Part shown: one piece after another, positions 59,196 to 61,793 of the stretch | Position numbering within the stretch: position 1 is the stretch's first letter | Layout: every line of letters starts with the position of its first letter | DNA from: Clostridia bacterium | GTDB lineage: Bacteria > Bacillota > Clostridia > Oscillospirales > CAG-272 | Direction: 5' to 3' | Assembly: GCA_017453245.1 (NCBI GenBank) | Contig: JAFTKM010000008.1 | Coordinates: forward strand, 19,017 to 83,016 | Length of the DNA stretch: 64,000 nt | Notes under the pieces: generated by a model | What the model saw: only the letters and a program-made list of their open reading frames with translations | The model's database searches: none | What the model was told of the DNA's origin: nothing | Made by a program: the position numbers and the translations under genes

Positions 59196-59516
59196 ATGTT
59201 TGTTAAGAATAACGATATAGAGCTCAAAGATCTCGGAGGCGGAGTATCAAGAAAAGTGCTCGCCTATGATGAGAATATTATGTCGGTTGAGGTAAGGTTT
59301 GAGAAGGGCGCTGTCGGCGCTATGCATACACACCCGCACACTCAGATCTCATACGTGCTCGAGGGCAAGTTTGAGGCTACTATCGACGGTAAGACAGAGG
59401 TCATCTCAAAGGGCGATACGTACATTACCCCGCCCGATGTACCTCACGGAGTTGTGTGCCTTGAAGAGGGCGCACTGCTCGACATCTTCACTCCTATGAG
59501 GAAGGACTTTGTATAG
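59196..59516 (+). CDS. Cupin-domain protein
   Basis: 106 aa. GAMHTHPHTQISYVLEGKFE...GDTYITPPDVPHG. Confidence 0.75.
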   Translation: MFVKNNDIELKDLGGGVSRKVLAYDENIMSVEVRFEKGAVGAMHTHPHTQISYVLEGKFEATIDGKTEVISKGDTYITPPDVPHGVVCLEEGALLDIFTPMRKDFV

Positions 59517-59517
59517 C

Positions 59518-59725
59518 GTGTTCTCCGTCAAGAAGAACACACTATAACTAAGTTTGCCCTTTCGGGCAAGTGCAGTTGTCTTCGACAGTGAAGTTCACTT
59601 CGTGAGTGAAGTTTTGCCTGTCGGCGAAGTGATGGGCAAACTTAACTACACTGCGAGCATTTGCGAGCAACTTCACTGTGCTTAGCACAACTTCACTTTC
59701 GCTTTTGCGAAAACTTCACCAGCAG
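59518..59725. repeat. Word-hairpin array with AGTGAAGTT (x2) followed by its reverse complement AACTTCACT/C (x3)
   Basis: AGTGAAGTT at 59587-59595 and 59605-59613. AACTTCACT at 59669-59677 and 59689-59697, and AACTTCACC at 59712-59720. Each pair is separated by a 9-15-nt mini-hairpin. Confidence 0.8.
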
Positions 59726-59774
59726 AAAAAGAGCAGACATGCGAGATTTTTCATCTTACATGTCTGCTCTTTCT
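59726..59774. terminator. Bidirectional terminator (mainly for the minus-strand heparinase-like gene)
   Basis: AGAGCAGACATG (59730-59741) pairs with CATGTCTGCTCT (59759-59770). On the minus strand it is followed by TTTTTCT. Confidence 0.7.
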
Positions 59775-59798
59775 ATTGTATATAGGCTTAAGCTTACA

Positions 59799-61793
59799 CT
59801 AAATATTAAATTTTAGTTCCCTAATTTTACCCGATTTTTCCGTGACGGTGACCTCTACATTGCCGTCTGTATTTTTCATTTCAACCGACGTAATTACCGA
59901 GTCGGACTTATACGCCTCGATGACGTTTATGAATATCGGGCATTTCTCGGTTGTGCGCTCAAGAAGATATGACACGCTCGAGGTTGCGGGATTGTTAGGT
60001 CCCTTAGCTAGTATCAGCTCCTTGCCTTCTGCCAAGGTGTGGACGTCCATACACCAACCGTCAGCGCGGTATGTGAGCTTGGTCGGGCGGTCGCATCGGT
60101 AGGAATAAGCTTCGCCAAGGTAGACTCCTGCGCCCTTGTCAGAGACCTTGCCGATATACTCAGCCTCCTTCGGTAGCTCTGCCTCCGCATTGATATGCCA
60201 GATCCATTCCTTCTTTAAGTCGTTATCCGATCTTACAGAGAAAACGTCGATGAAATACTTATCGTGCCACGAGATGATGCGGCGCATTGTGACACCCCTG
60301 TATGACTCGTCCGACCACTGCTTGATGGTGAAGGAGTCGAGCATCTCATACTCCTCGGGCGGCAGAGTCTCGGCATCAAGGTAGATATCGTCGGGAGCAC
60401 TCATACGATATTCTCTGATACGGGTATCACAGGGCGCCATATTCTCACCGTCGATAACAACGGTATTATGCGCCAGAGTATTCTTAAAATAACCGTAATG
60501 AAGAGGCGAACCGTAGCCCGAAGCGGTGCCAAAATCCATACACGCCCCCGCGCCAAAGGCGTCAAAGGAGAGAGCCAAGCGGTCATAGTGATCGTGCTCA
60601 CCGCCATAGGGTGTCGCCTTAAATAAGAGGGTTCTGCCCTCGGTTCCGTGAAGGATAGCGAGACCTGATCCACGCTCGGAAAGATAGTTTTCAAGCGGTA
60701 TTTCGTGACGCGCGGGAAGGTTATCTACGCCATAGATCAGCGCGTCAAGATGTCCCCTCTTACCTTCTCTGTCACTTAAGTAAAGCAGAGCAAGTATTTC
60801 GTCCGTGCCAAATACCGAGTAGGCAAATTCGTATATGTCCGAATAGCCCGAGAGTGAGCCGTGACCGTCGTTTAGCCTTGCGGTATTCGAGTCGTTCACA
60901 CGGAGCTTGAGAGGCAGGATCAAGGCCTTATAGAGCTTGTCGCGGTAGTGCGGATCTCCGAAAAGGCTATGCTCTGTGTTCTTCGCCATCTTCTCAAAGG
61001 TCATAAACCACCTGAGAGCATAGAGATGGTAGGATACCGAGCACTCAAACCACAAATTATCCTCGAGGTAGGCGTGGTCTATCTGGTATTTGAGACCGTA
61101 CTTGGTATCGGTGGCAAAGCGCACAAGCTCCCCATCTTCGATGGCAAGACCTATCGCGGCGATCGACGTGCAGATAGCGACCTCGTGGTTGTGTAGCTGA
61201 GGGGTAAGATACTTCCTCTGATGCTCTGCCGCGGGGCGGAACAGCTCGTTCTCGATAATGGTACGTTCCTCGTCTGTGAAGCTGAATTTGATAAGCGAAT
61301 ATGCGGGAGCGAGATTGCAGATTGGCTCGCAATCGGTAAGCACCTGAGCGGCAAATCTGCCCGGGTGATTATACGGAATGCCTCCGTTAACCTCATAGTT
61401 TTTGTAGTTTTCGGCGTAGCCGAGTATTATTGTCTTTGCGACAGATAAGAAGTCCTCCCTGCCCGTCGCAACATAGCCTATGGCAAGCTTATATGCGGCA
61501 GAGGTTGTCATAGTGAGGACCGTCTCCCACCACGCGCCAAGGTATGGCTCGCCCGTCTGCACACCTCCGCACTCGGGGCAGACAAAGCGCTCGTTGTCAT
61601 TATAGTTGAAGCTAAGGCGCGTGCCGCACTCGGGACAGGTGAAATAGTGATACCACGTGGCAAGACCTGTCTTTTGTATATAGAGCTTTCGGCGGACGTT
61701 GCTTGTGCTATTCTCGATCTTTGTTATATATTCGGGGTGATTTTCCACCCTTTTTCTTATTATTTCGATGTCTCTTTCGGAAAATATCATCAT
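59799..61793 (-). CDS. Heparinase II/III-like (alginate-lyase-superfamily) protein with an N-terminal zinc-ribbon
   Basis: 664 aa. CPECGTRLSF...CPECGG, SVSYHLYALRWF, GGEHDHYDRLALSF, KNTLAHNTVVIDGENM. No signal peptide. Confidence 0.7.
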   Translation of the reverse strand: MMIFSERDIEIIRKRVENHPEYITKIENSTSNVRRKLYIQKTGLATWYHYFTCPECGTRLSFNYNDNERFVCPECGGVQTGEPYLGAWWETVLTMTTSAAYKLAIGYVATGREDFLSVAKTIILGYAENYKNYEVNGGIPYNHPGRFAAQVLTDCEPICNLAPAYSLIKFSFTDEERTIIENELFRPAAEHQRKYLTPQLHNHEVAICTSIAAIGLAIEDGELVRFATDTKYGLKYQIDHAYLEDNLWFECSVSYHLYALRWFMTFEKMAKNTEHSLFGDPHYRDKLYKALILPLKLRVNDSNTARLNDGHGSLSGYSDIYEFAYSVFGTDEILALLYLSDREGKRGHLDALIYGVDNLPARHEIPLENYLSERGSGLAILHGTEGRTLLFKATPYGGEHDHYDRLALSFDAFGAGACMDFGTASGYGSPLHYGYFKNTLAHNTVVIDGENMAPCDTRIREYRMSAPDDIYLDAETLPPEEYEMLDSFTIKQWSDESYRGVTMRRIISWHDKYFIDVFSVRSDNDLKKEWIWHINAEAELPKEAEYIGKVSDKGAGVYLGEAYSYRCDRPTKLTYRADGWCMDVHTLAEGKELILAKGPNNPATSSVSYLLERTTEKCPIFINVIEAYKSDSVITSVEMKNTDGNVEVTVTEKSGKIRELKFNI

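What the first reader, a model, noticed from the sequence alone, without database searches (positions are those of the whole stretch)
59518..59790. Same word in both orientations in one array: potential large folded or cruciform structure between convergent genes
Downstream of the cupin gene the array reads:
[GTGTTCT..AGAACAC] .. AAGTTTGCCC tttc GGGCAA .. [GTC ttc GAC] AGTGAAGTT [CAC ttc GTG] AGTGAAGTT [TTGCC tgtc GGCGAA] gtgat GGGCAAACTT .. AACTTCACT [GTGC tta GCAC] AACTTCACT [TTCGC tttt GCGAA] AACTTCACC,
followed by a strong terminator.

The word AGTGAAGTT (59587, 59605) is the exact reverse complement of AACTTCACT (59669, 59689). AAGTTTGCCC (59552-59561) pairs with GGGCAAACTT (59633-59642).

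So here the words themselves can pair, giving a long helix decorated with mini-hairpins. The word is the same one used in the cotJC cassette junctions, which links this cargo-free locus to the cassette system.
Basis: seen in the sequence. Interest (0 to 1): 0.6.

Follow-up and report, generated by a model that had tools for sequence, protein, structure and literature searches.

The report
Orphan Gut-1-type inverted hairpin-array repeat
The stretch is one gene-less copy of a repeat element scattered through this gut bacterium's genome, made of two facing arrays of a fixed 9-base word separated by tiny hairpins. Complete copies of the same element sit directly in front of genes for a small ring-forming protein whose relatives each carry their own word, which gives a catalogued but unexplained "RNA motif" a testable partner.

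Summary
AGTGAAGTT occurs at 59587 and 59605, and its reverse complement at 59669, 59689 and 59712. Every slot except 59653-59668 holds a mini-hairpin, and AAGTTTGCCC pairs with GGGCAAACTT (two coordinates are 1-2 nt off).

The locus is not special. The 1.59-Mb genome holds 24 such forward-then-reverse composites and only one reverse-then-forward cluster. All share one asymmetric plan: stop-codon hairpin, forward array nested in a head hairpin, reverse array, terminator. Each arm is the Rfam Gut-1 motif (46.2 bits here; sister copies pass 50).

Sites compared with two related species are empty. Copy number ranges from 0 to 173 within the genus. Loops are strand-asymmetric and match the DNA mini-hairpin consensus cGN(N)Ag, not RNA tetraloops.

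Two copies directly precede PF05635 (Avd-like four-helix-bundle) genes. Across the genus each PF05635 clade carries its own word.

This is therefore an orphan copy of a PF05635-linked repeat, not a secondary attachment site for the cotJC cassettes.

The parts
59196..59516 (+). Cupin gene (106 aa). Its TAG stop codon (59514-59516) pairs with CTA (59542-59544) and extends the base of the element's first hairpin.
   Evidence: ORF list. Pfam Cupin_2/Cupin_7 annotation of the identical protein. Sequence.
59518..59540 (+). hp0, the stop-codon hairpin: GTGTTCT, loop ccgtcaaga, AGAACAC. It belongs to the semi-conserved GCGTGTT..AACACGC class that heads most copies. No U-tract follows it.
   Evidence: same hairpin class in G000 copies and in other genomes.
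59546..59569 (+). Head of the element: AACTAAGTT followed by hairpin hp1 (TTGCCC tttc GGGCAA). AAGTTTGCCC (59550-59559) can pair either locally or with GGGCAAACTT at 59634-59643.
   Evidence: The pairing holds in 99.5% of cells but never varies in alignment A3. Copy C11:5978 has this as a simple hairpin with no forward array.
59569..59633 (+). Forward (A) arm. Order: AGTGCAGTT, hairpin gtc-ttc-gac, AGTGAAGTT, hairpin cac-ttc-gtg, AGTGAAGTT, hairpin ttgcc-tgtc-ggcgaa, GTGAT. On the minus strand its four loops (hp1 included) read c-GAA-g, c-GAA-g, c-GACA-g and c-GAAA-g.
   Evidence: Rfam Gut-1 at 46.2 bits over 59545-59617 (+). Compensatory changes in the hairpins.
59634..59643 (+). GGGCAAACTT, the distal partner of AAGTTTGCCC. 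It closes the head hairpin around the forward arm.
   Evidence: (pair I22).
59644..59720 (+). Reverse (B) arm. Order: AACTACACT, GCGAGC-attt-GCGAGC (a direct repeat, not a hairpin), AACTTCACT, hairpin gtgc-tta-gcac, AACTTCACT, hairpin ttcgc-tttt-gcgaa, AACTTCACC.
   Evidence: Rfam Gut-1 at 25.4 bits on the minus strand, 59665-59754. It is 84-94% complementary to the cotJC-junction arrays (pairs I1-I3).
59726..59775 (.). Bidirectional intrinsic-terminator-like hairpin (arms 59728-59747 and 59753-59772), with an A-run before it and a T-rich run after it. It is homologous to the terminators attached to sister copies C21:6880 and C17:82178, so it is part of the repeat unit.
   Evidence: pair I13; alignment of copies. 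The simple terminator scan did not list it.
59776..59789 (+). TTGTATATAGGCTT, the start of a conserved tail (consensus TTGTATAAGGGTTTGGGC..) that follows the terminator in many copies. Homology with sister copies ends about here.
59799..61793 (-). Convergent heparinase II/III-like gene (664 aa). It is an accessory gene, found in only 1 of 60 relatives.
   Evidence: PF07940.

Best explanation
Positions 59517-59790 are one gene-less (orphan) copy of a dispersed composite repeat of about 270 bp.

**Plan of the unit.**
- A hairpin that starts on the stop codon of the upstream gene.
- A head hairpin, AAGTTTGCCC paired with GGGCAAACTT.
- An inverted array of word plus mini-hairpin units (the forward arm) sitting inside the loop of that head hairpin.
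- A second array in the opposite orientation (the reverse arm).
- The element's own bidirectional terminator.

Each arm is a Gut-1 motif. The same word appears in both orientations because one array is nested, inverted, just upstream of the other. That is the family's standard architecture.

**Shown.**
- The element comes and goes as DNA. It sits where related species have only a plain terminator, and its copy number varies over 100-fold within the genus.
- Complete copies directly precede genes for PF05635 (Avd-like, pentameric four-helix-bundle) proteins, and each PF05635 clade carries its own word.

**Inferred.**
- The words are the binding sites of the cognate PF05635 protein (here the C16/C17 paralogues).
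- The form that folds is single-stranded or extruded DNA on the strand reading AACTTCACT, because its loops fit the DNA mini-hairpin consensus cGN(N)Ag.

**At this locus.** The copy probably acts only as the 3' end and terminator of the cupin and heparinase-like genes, and possibly as an extra binding array. The ladder or cruciform fold is possible but is a by-product of the design.
For: **Family and polarity.**
- For GTGAAGTT there are 24 forward-then-reverse clusters and 1 reverse-then-forward.
- Other words in the same genome give 15:1 (ATGAATT) and 5:0 (ATGATGT).
- The asymmetric order of hairpins is conserved in 21 own copies and in 19 copies from other genomes.

**Gut-1 identity.**
- This copy scores 46.2 bits.
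- Sister copies score 51.6-66.4 bits against a threshold of 50, with the two arms matching on opposite strands.
- The flanks of the original Gut-1 seed alignment show the same layout.

**Nesting.** Copy C11:5978 has the head as a simple hairpin followed by a reverse array only.

**Hairpins are maintained.** 96.6% of cells are paired, 9 pairs change on both sides, and 0 of 500 shuffles reach this.

**Strand asymmetry.**
- cGN(N)Ag loops: 90 of 175 on the AACTTCAC strand against 10 on the other.
- Strict GCGN(N)AGC consensus: 57 against 7.
- GNYA tetraloops 35, GNRA 4.
- The closing pair is C-G in 87 of 103 hairpins.
- G.T wobbles: 10 against 1.
- d(GCGAAGC) melts at 76.5 C and r(GCGAAAGC) at 39 C (PMC13037366).

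**Position.**
- 29 of 36 arrays follow a co-oriented gene end.
- Orientation shows no link to GC skew.

**Gain and loss.**
- The cupin site is empty in G023.
- The rsgA-to-rplJ-leader site is empty in G211, with flanks that align cleanly. The same site holds elements with two other words in G013 and G215.
- 30 of 61 congeners have arrays, with 0-59 double words each against 173 here.

**Protein partner.**
- The genome has 7 PF05635 genes. Two of them, 84% identical to each other, directly follow GTGAAGTT elements.
- 23 of 30 homologues sampled in the genus follow such an element.
- On the protein tree the words need the minimum of 10 changes, against 18.1 for shuffled labels, with 0 of 200 shuffles as low.
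- PDB entry 2RLD is a homologue, E = 3e-21, with five chains in the entry.
Against: - No transposase, terminal inverted repeat with target duplication, or other insertion signature was found. Both filled-versus-empty comparisons look like replacement of the native terminator.
- PF05635 has no known catalytic activity.
- Co-variation of protein clade and word could partly reflect simple physical linkage of a gene and its upstream sequence.
- Genomes with many GTGAAGTT arrays (G214 with 46, G213 with 27, G225 with 59) show no orthologue of the C16/C17 protein at 90% identity or more. These assemblies are incomplete and tend to break at the arrays.
- Orientation follows the upstream gene, which would also fit an RNA-level role in 3' UTRs.
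- At this copy the reverse arm's own loops (TTA, TTTT) do not fit the DNA mini-hairpin consensus.
Confidence: 0.7

Rival explanations
1. The element is a structured RNA in the 3' UTR of the cupin operon. This is Gut-1 as an RNA, as Rfam lists it. The two arms fold into a long ladder hairpin that blocks 3' exonucleases or helps termination, or the single-stranded words bind a protein or another RNA.
For: - The arrays lie after stop codons and are co-oriented with the upstream gene in 29 of 36 cases.
- This copy lies upstream of the terminator, so it would be transcribed with the cupin gene.
- The fold is far better than shuffled sequence, and long-range pairing adds 13-34 kcal/mol in 17 copies.
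- The hairpins show compensatory changes.
- Weinberg et al. rated Gut-1 as an RNA.
Against: - The loops are GNYA and GNA, not GNRA or UNCG.
- Many units are bare 2-bp GCGN(N)AGC hairpins, which are stable as DNA but weak as RNA.
- The favoured strand is opposite to the one Rfam models.
- In the GTGAAAT-type copies the element lies between an upstream terminator or tRNA gene and the -35 box of the PF05635 promoter, in a spacer that is probably not transcribed.
- Presence is patchy among congeners.
Confidence: 0.2
2. The element is a REPIN- or BIME-like repeat moved by the genome's REP-associated tyrosine transposase (RAYT), which would recognise the hairpins in single-stranded DNA.
For: - A RAYT-like gene exists at C12:6583-7113, matching NF047646 at 61 bits, E = 9e-17.
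- The elements are inverted doublets of hairpins in intergenic DNA, with lineage-specific expansion.
Against: - RAYT presence and array counts do not go together in 61 congeners. Five genomes with full-length RAYT matches have zero arrays, and the five richest congeners in arrays have no RAYT.
- The RAYT gene is not flanked by these arrays.
- A separate GTAG-type 24-mer with 27 copies is the likelier RAYT partner.
Confidence: 0.04
3. One reading: the locus is an empty secondary attachment site of the cotJC cassette system, with the inverted words acting as a recombination site.
For: - The same word and two of the same hairpin types (gtgc..gcac and tttgc..gcaaa) occur in the cassette junctions.
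- The elements start exactly at stop codons, as the cassettes do at cotJC.
Against: - The word family is genome-wide, with about 50 clusters.
- None of the 24 composites carries a gene between its arms.
- No cassette is present at this site in the other strain or in the sister species.
- No protein family recurs next to the arrays.
Confidence: 0.04

Closest known systems
Gut-1 RNA motif (Rfam RF01706; Weinberg et al. 2010, PMC2864571)
   Same: - Three or four variable hairpins are separated by a constant heptamer (GUGAAAU in Rfam, GUGAAGU here).
- Sister copies pass the gathering score.
- The original seed flanks show the same inverted second arm after a stop codon.
   Different: - Rfam models a 77-nt stand-alone small RNA on the forward strand.
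- Here it is one arm of a roughly 270-bp composite that also has a stop-codon hairpin, a head hairpin, an inverted second arm and a terminator.
- Strand asymmetries favour the opposite strand and DNA.
- This copy scores 46.2 bits, below the threshold of 50.
REP/BIME elements and REPIN-RAYT systems (from my own knowledge: E. coli and Pseudomonas; Bertels and Rainey 2011; Nunvar et al. 2010)
   Same: - They are dispersed extragenic palindromic units at gene ends, often as inverted doublets.
- Expansions are lineage-specific.
- A single-copy protein gene sits next to a master copy, and each protein clade has its own repeat sequence.
   Different: - The linked protein is a small four-helix-bundle (PF05635), not an HUH tyrosine transposase.
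- The units are arrays of several different mini-hairpins joined by a fixed word, not one GTAG hairpin.
- The genome's RAYT does not co-occur with them.
Avd / PF05635 '23S rRNA intervening-sequence protein' family (PDB 2RLD; Avd 4DWL; PMC10053308)
   Same: The adjacent proteins match PF05635 at 63-105 bits and match PDB 2RLD. Avd is a pentameric barrel that binds nucleic acid; this last point is from my own knowledge.
   Different: No reverse transcriptase was found in this assembly, and nothing indicated a diversity-generating retroelement. A role with heptamer arrays has not been described in the papers I could search.
Mini-hairpin DNA d(GCGNAGC)/d(GCGNNAGC) at single-strand priming sites and phage N4 promoters (PMC13037366)
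   Same: The inter-word units are literally GCGAAGC, GCGTAGC, GCGATAGC and GCGTCAGC, or longer stems closed by c-GN(N)A-g.
   Different: The known natural examples are single hairpins at phage or plasmid origins and promoters. Arrays dispersed through a chromosome are not among them.
Modular MITE-like repeats of Firmicutes (from my own knowledge: pneumococcal BOX, RUP; Neisseria Correia)
   Same: They are modular and highly folded, vary in number of modules, lie in intergenic DNA, and can supply terminators.
   Different: No terminal inverted repeats of a known insertion sequence and no target-site duplication were seen at two filled-versus-empty sites.

Membership tests
Gut-1 RNA motif (RF01706) | Covariance-model score at or above the gathering threshold of 50 bits | tested here: not met
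   - This copy: 46.2 bits (+, 59545-59617) and 25.4 bits (-, 59665-59754).
- Sister copies of the same family do pass: L170 51.6, L173 66.4, L174 61.5 and 50.9, L182 59, L175 54.1.
Gut-1 RNA motif (RF01706) | Consecutive hairpins separated by a conserved GUGAAAU-like heptamer, with covariation in the stems | tested here: met
   Alignment to the model. In one search, 96.6% of cells are paired, 9 pairs change on both sides, and 0 of 500 shuffles reach this.
Gut-1 RNA motif (RF01706) | Acts as a transcribed non-coding RNA | not testable with these tools
Indirect evidence (loop types, favoured strand, position upstream of promoters) argues against it.
REPIN-RAYT / REP-BIME | The repeat family co-occurs with, and flanks, a cognate RAYT (Y1 HUH) gene | tested here: not met
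   A RAYT-like gene is present, but it is not flanked by the arrays and its distribution in 61 congeners does not follow theirs.
REPIN-RAYT / REP-BIME | Inverted doublet of palindromic units in extragenic DNA at gene ends | tested here: met
   24 forward-then-reverse composites. 29 of 36 arrays follow a co-oriented gene end.
MITE | Terminal inverted repeats with a target-site duplication at filled versus empty sites | tested here: not met
   In G000 versus G211 at rsgA and the window versus G023, the element replaces the native terminator and no duplication is visible. The G023 flanks are too diverged to be strict.
Integron attC / cassette attachment site | Cassettes (genes) inserted at the site in some genomes | tested here: not met
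   No gene lies between the arms of any of the 24 composites. The other strain is identical, and G023 has only a 49-nt terminator.
PF05635-linked inverted hairpin-array element (class seen repeatedly in this scan) | Same architecture and word as the elements that directly precede the PF05635 genes of the same genome | tested here: met
   The elements at C16:10976-11157 and C17:20642-20832 are followed by PF05635 genes. They align with the window copy.
PF05635-linked inverted hairpin-array element (class seen repeatedly in this scan) | A PF05635 gene immediately downstream | tested here: not met
   At this locus a terminator and a convergent heparinase-like gene follow. The copy is an orphan.
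Mini-hairpin DNA motif | GCGN(N)AGC or c-GN(N)A-g loops enriched on one strand | tested here: met
   Family-wide: 90 of 175 against 10 of 175, and strict consensus 57 against 7. At this copy 4 of 4 loops of the forward arm plus hp1 fit on the minus strand. The two reverse-arm loops (TTA, TTTT) do not.

The most novel reading that the evidence does not exclude
Gut-1-type inverted arrays are not small RNAs. They would be DNA elements living with PF05635 (Avd-like) ring proteins in a relationship like that of REPINs and RAYTs.
- Each protein clade recognises its own heptamer, displayed between extruded cGNAg DNA mini-hairpins.
- A master copy sits in front of the protein gene.
- Orphan copies such as 59517-59790 are seeded at stop codons and terminators across the genome, where the protein could bind or help them spread.

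This would give a function both to an orphan Rfam family and to the non-retroelement PF05635 proteins.
Probability: 0.35. Interest if true: 0.8.

Novelty: new variant of a known kind. Interest (0 to 1): 0.55.

Why it matters
Gut-1 has sat in Rfam since 2010 as a gut-only small RNA with no known function. PF05635 proteins outside diversity-generating retroelements are equally unexplained.

This locus and its 23 sister composites add four things:
- The catalogued motif is half of a larger, polar composite.
- The composite behaves as DNA that is gained and lost at stop codons.
- Its loops carry the signature of DNA rather than RNA hairpins.
- The word changes in step with the adjacent PF05635 clade.

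Together these turn two orphans into one hypothesis that can be tested at the bench with a binding assay. The elements also matter for annotation. They supply stop codons and terminators, and they break metagenome assemblies, since three contigs end in arrays.

Tried and rejected
- **Metagenome scan with the 664-aa neighbour.** It returned nothing closer than 60% identity. The exact-protein look-up gave only one identical strain. Strain-level gain or loss at this locus is therefore unknown.
- **Recurrent neighbour genes.** All-against-all comparison of proteins flanking the 50 arrays found no shared family. The PF05635 link appeared only after a lead from earlier notes.
- **RAYT as mobiliser.** Rejected by the co-occurrence test.
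- **Retro-mobility.** No RVT_1 reverse transcriptase was found in the assembly, which is 64% complete.
- **Replication-linked orientation.** R-sense against GC skew splits 15 to 21, so there is no link.
- **UNCG tetraloops.** My first reading of the forward-arm loops as C(UUCG)G tetraloops was wrong. The palindrome register makes them 3-nt loops.
- **Covariation of the long-range head helix.** It is uninformative in alignment A3 because the helix never varies there. I saw the T-to-C / A-to-G variant only by eye, in four copies of one subfamily.
- **Word-word ladder pairing.** It cannot be tested by covariation because the words do not vary within a dialect.
- **Fuzzy-regex genome scan.** It timed out and was replaced by blastn.
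- **PF05635 clade against array count.** Presence of the exact clade does not predict GTGAAGTT array number across incomplete assemblies.

Full report
**1. The observation.**

The sequence is as described.
- After the cupin stop codon (TAG, 59514-59516) comes a hairpin, GTGTTCT/AGAACAC (59518-59540).
- Next is AACTAAGTT, followed by the hairpin TTGCCC-tttc-GGGCAA.
- The forward words follow: AGTGCAGTT (degenerate), AGTGAAGTT (59587) and AGTGAAGTT (59605). Each is followed by a mini-hairpin.
- GGGCAAACTT lies at 59634-59643.
- The reverse words follow: AACTACACT (degenerate), AACTTCACT (59669), AACTTCACT (59689) and AACTTCACC (59712), with hairpins between them.
- A 20-bp terminator hairpin closes the unit (59728-59772).

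One "hairpin" slot (GCGAGC-attt-GCGAGC, 59653-59668) is a direct repeat.

The 9-mer occurs 12 times in the window against 0.44 expected. Folding is well below shuffled controls on both strands, with z = -4.7 and -4.5. Long-range word pairing adds -16.4 kcal/mol over local hairpins.

**2. It is one copy of a family with a fixed, polar plan.**

In the whole assembly (1.59 Mb, 27 contigs) GTGAAGTT occurs 293 times.
- Clusters of the 7-mer TGAAGTT fall into 24 forward-then-reverse (FR) composites, 1 reverse-then-forward, 12 forward-only and 13 reverse-only.
- Two other words in the same genome give FR:RF ratios of 15:1 and 5:0.

The FR copies share an asymmetric order of specific hairpins, printed side by side. 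The order is:
- hp0;
- AACTAAGTT-TGCCC-loop-GGGCA;
- three forward words with hairpins of the types (a/t)(t/a)c-tnc, cac-ttc-gtg or atcc-tnc-ggat, and ttgcc or tgcgcc;
- GGGCAAACTT;
- four reverse words with gcgagc..gcgag, gtgc..gcac and tttgc..gcaaa.

Three copies (this one, C21:6880 and C17:82178) also share hp0 and the terminator. The repeated unit here therefore spans essentially the whole intergenic region, 59517 to about 59789.

The same unit, down to the individual hairpins, is found in other species of the genus and in two other genera of the family.

**3. Relation to Gut-1.**

Rfam finds only Gut-1 (RF01706): 46.2 bits on the forward arm and 25.4 bits on the minus strand of the reverse arm, against a gathering score of 50. 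Sister copies pass the threshold, with both arms matching on opposite strands.

The flanks in the original Gut-1 seed alignment already show the full layout in another word: UAUAUUCGCC..GGCGA, three GUGAUAU, GGCGAAUAUA, then four AUAUCAC, after a stop codon and hairpin (PMC2864571 supplement). The paper itself says only that Gut-1 is found in human-gut sequence. The catalogued motif is therefore one arm of a larger element.

**4. Why the word is in both orientations.**

Copy C11:5978 has AAGTTTGCC-cctc-GGCAAACTT as a plain hairpin, followed directly by a reverse array. Other reverse-only arrays start with an analogous head hairpin. In the composites the forward array sits inside the loop of that head hairpin.

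This nesting explains two things:
- the near-exclusive FR polarity;
- the three-way complementarity of TGCCC with a local and a distal GGGCA.

Other small modules are also found nested in hairpin loops. An example is a 45-nt gaacccc..ggggaacccc unit in hp1 of several copies.

**5. Structure is maintained, with a strand bias.**

On an alignment of 19 copies from several genomes, the local hairpins are paired in 96.6% of cells, against 31-48% when the partners are slid. Nine pairs change on both sides, and 0 of 500 shuffles reach this. The long head helix is paired but invariant in that set, so it is uninformative.

Taking all 175 inter-word segments in the orientation where the word reads AACTTCAC:
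- Loops start with G and end with A in 49 of 119 distinct segments, against 3 with T..C.
- c-GN(N)A-g loops occur 90 times against 10 on the other strand.
- The strict GCGN(N)AGC consensus occurs 57 times against 7.
- GNYA tetraloops occur 35 times and GNRA 4 times.
- The closing pair is C-G in 87 of 103 hairpins.
- G.T wobbles occur 10 times against 1.

Twenty-three units are bare T+GCGN(N)AGC, including an 11-fold tandem run at C27:159414. These are the "mini-hairpin DNA" sequences. d(GCGAAGC) melts at 76.5 C and GCGATAGC at 71 C, whereas r(GCGAAAGC) melts at 39 C (PMC13037366).

The favoured strand is opposite to the one Rfam models. At this locus it is the minus strand for the forward arm, where all four loops fit. 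The reverse arm's own loops (TTA, TTTT) do not fit.

**6. Position and orientation.**

In 29 of 36 arrays a co-oriented gene ends just upstream, typically with hp0 starting at or overlapping the stop codon. In three copies the TAA inside AACTAAGTT is the stop codon.

Neighbouring copies on one contig alternate in orientation along with their genes. There is no relation to GC skew, with a 15 to 21 split.

**7. Gain and loss.**

*This locus.*
- The only relative with the heparinase-like gene (G023, 83% identity) has the cupin gene 49 nt away, with a single unrelated bidirectional terminator and no element.
- One other strain is identical.

*The next copy, just beyond the window end (C2:83025-83196, after rsgA).*
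- G211 (88% RsgA identity) aligns cleanly up to the stop codon and again from the rplJ-leader promoter onward. Between them it has a 35-nt terminator where G000 has about 290 nt.
- 22 further congeners also lack an element there.
- G013 and G215 carry composites with different words (GTTATGA, GTGATAT) at the same site.

*The genus.* 30 of 61 species have GTGAAGTT arrays, with 1-59 double words each against 173 here. Outside the genus they are rare.

**8. The protein partner.**

Earlier notes of this scan pointed to PF05635, and I tested that here.
- G000 has 7 PF05635 genes.
- Two of them, 84% identical to each other but only 38-53% identical to the rest, lie 20-30 nt after the last reverse word of GTGAAGTT composites (C16:10976-11157 and C17:20642-20832).
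- The other five are flanked by other heptamers.
- Among 30 homologues from the genus, 23 are preceded by a complete composite.
- Words track protein similarity. At 92% identity or more the word is GTGAAGT. At 58-62% it is GTGAAAT, the Rfam word, and Gut-1 hits there reach 54-66 bits. At 51-57% it is TCGATAT, GCGATAT or TGAATTG.
- On a maximum-likelihood tree the 11 words need the minimum of 10 changes, against a shuffled mean of 18.1, with 0 of 200 shuffles as low. Each multi-member word forms a clade, mostly with support of 98 or more.
- In several clades the -35 box of the gene's promoter abuts the last word, and a terminator or tRNA gene precedes the element. There the element sits in a spacer that is probably not transcribed.
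- PF05635 is the Avd-like four-helix-bundle family (PMC10053308). PDB entry 2RLD, with five chains, is a homologue.

Caveats:
- A gene and its upstream element are physically linked, so they co-diverge in any case.
- Genomes rich in GTGAAGTT arrays do not all show the matching clade, although these assemblies are incomplete and break at arrays.

**9. What was excluded.**
- A RAYT-like gene exists, but it does not co-occur with the arrays. It more likely partners a separate 27-copy GTAG-type 24-mer.
- No reverse transcriptase was found.
- No protein family recurs next to the arrays apart from PF05635.
- The cotJC junction arrays are reverse-type half elements of this family. Nothing ties the present locus to the cassettes specifically.

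**10. Verdict.**

The finding is a real and well-described instance of a dispersed Gut-1-type composite, and here it is an orphan copy. The ladder fold is thermodynamically plausible but is a consequence of the nested design.

The most likely reading is a DNA-level element that is the cognate array of PF05635 proteins.

Noticed in passing
L105:1255-1785 (G000 C12:6583-7113): A 176-aa RAYT-like gene (NF047646 61 bits, PF01797 19 bits) contains two inverted copies of a 24-nt GTAG-type sequence, GTAGGGCGGGGGCTTGCTCCCGCC, inside its reading frame. The same 24-mer occurs 27 times in the genome, mostly identical, and about half of the copies lie inside crude ORFs of 99-222 aa.
   Followed up: partly
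L007, L015, L016, L017 (G000 C16:21965, C27:50743, C27:220134, C27:250146); also L123, L126, L128, L130: A roughly 45-nt module (gtgaaccccaaaagctcgacttcgctcgcttcggggaaccccgaaat) is nested in the loop of hairpin hp1, or in another hairpin slot, of several composites in this and other genomes. It looks like a second tiny element that targets hairpin loops.
   Followed up: no
G000 C5:11756-11870, C17:82062-82128, C18:1937-2000, C21:6769-6808, C23:123028; L121, L127, L131, L132: A conserved module of about 120 nt follows the element-linked terminator at many loci and in several genomes. Its consensus is TATAAGGGTTTGGGCTTAGCCC..GCGTTTGACCGGTCAAATGCGATGCTCGCACTTAG..AATTCTCCGCTAAG, and it includes a 20-bp perfect palindrome.
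   Followed up: no
L162, L163, L164 (G000 C6:12521-12865, C21:55550-55891, C9:3975-4331): Three other PF05635 genes lack hairpin arrays but carry contiguous tandem heptamers. TGCAAAA and TTGAAAA lie upstream and inverted downstream of the first two genes. TAATGAA lies upstream of the third. This recalls cyanobacterial STRR heptamer repeats.
   Followed up: no
L143 (G013) and L159 (G215), downstream of rsgA; L138 (G211) empty: The same intergenic site, between rsgA and the rplJ leader, holds composites with three different words in three species: GTGAAGTT in G000, GTTATGA in G013 and GTGATAT in G215. It is empty in the closest relatives.
   Followed up: partly
G000 C27:159414-159590 and C11:6003-6385: The arrays can expand by tandem duplication. 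One has 11 copies of a 17-nt unit, AACTTCACT+GCGATAGC. The other has three copies of a higher-order unit of about 111 nt.
   Followed up: no
G000 C21:68604-68834: A roughly 230-nt insert bounded by inverted repeats GTGTCATCCTGAGC / GCTCAGGATGACAC splits one composite between its arms. It is probably a separate miniature transposable element.
   Followed up: no
G000 contig ends C6:20-62, C12:26-326, C16:3-191: Three contigs end inside GTGAAGTT arrays. These repeats break the assembly, so copy counts and neighbouring genes are underestimated in such assemblies.
   Followed up: no
L169, L171, L176-L179, L181 and G000 C17:20828-22207: Many composite-plus-PF05635 units start on the stop codon of a gene ending ..FPMTGHVESVVCL. 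From my own knowledge this looks like a 23S rRNA m5U methyltransferase (RlmD/RumA type). Different species have different words and protein clades at what appears to be the same locus.
   Followed up: no
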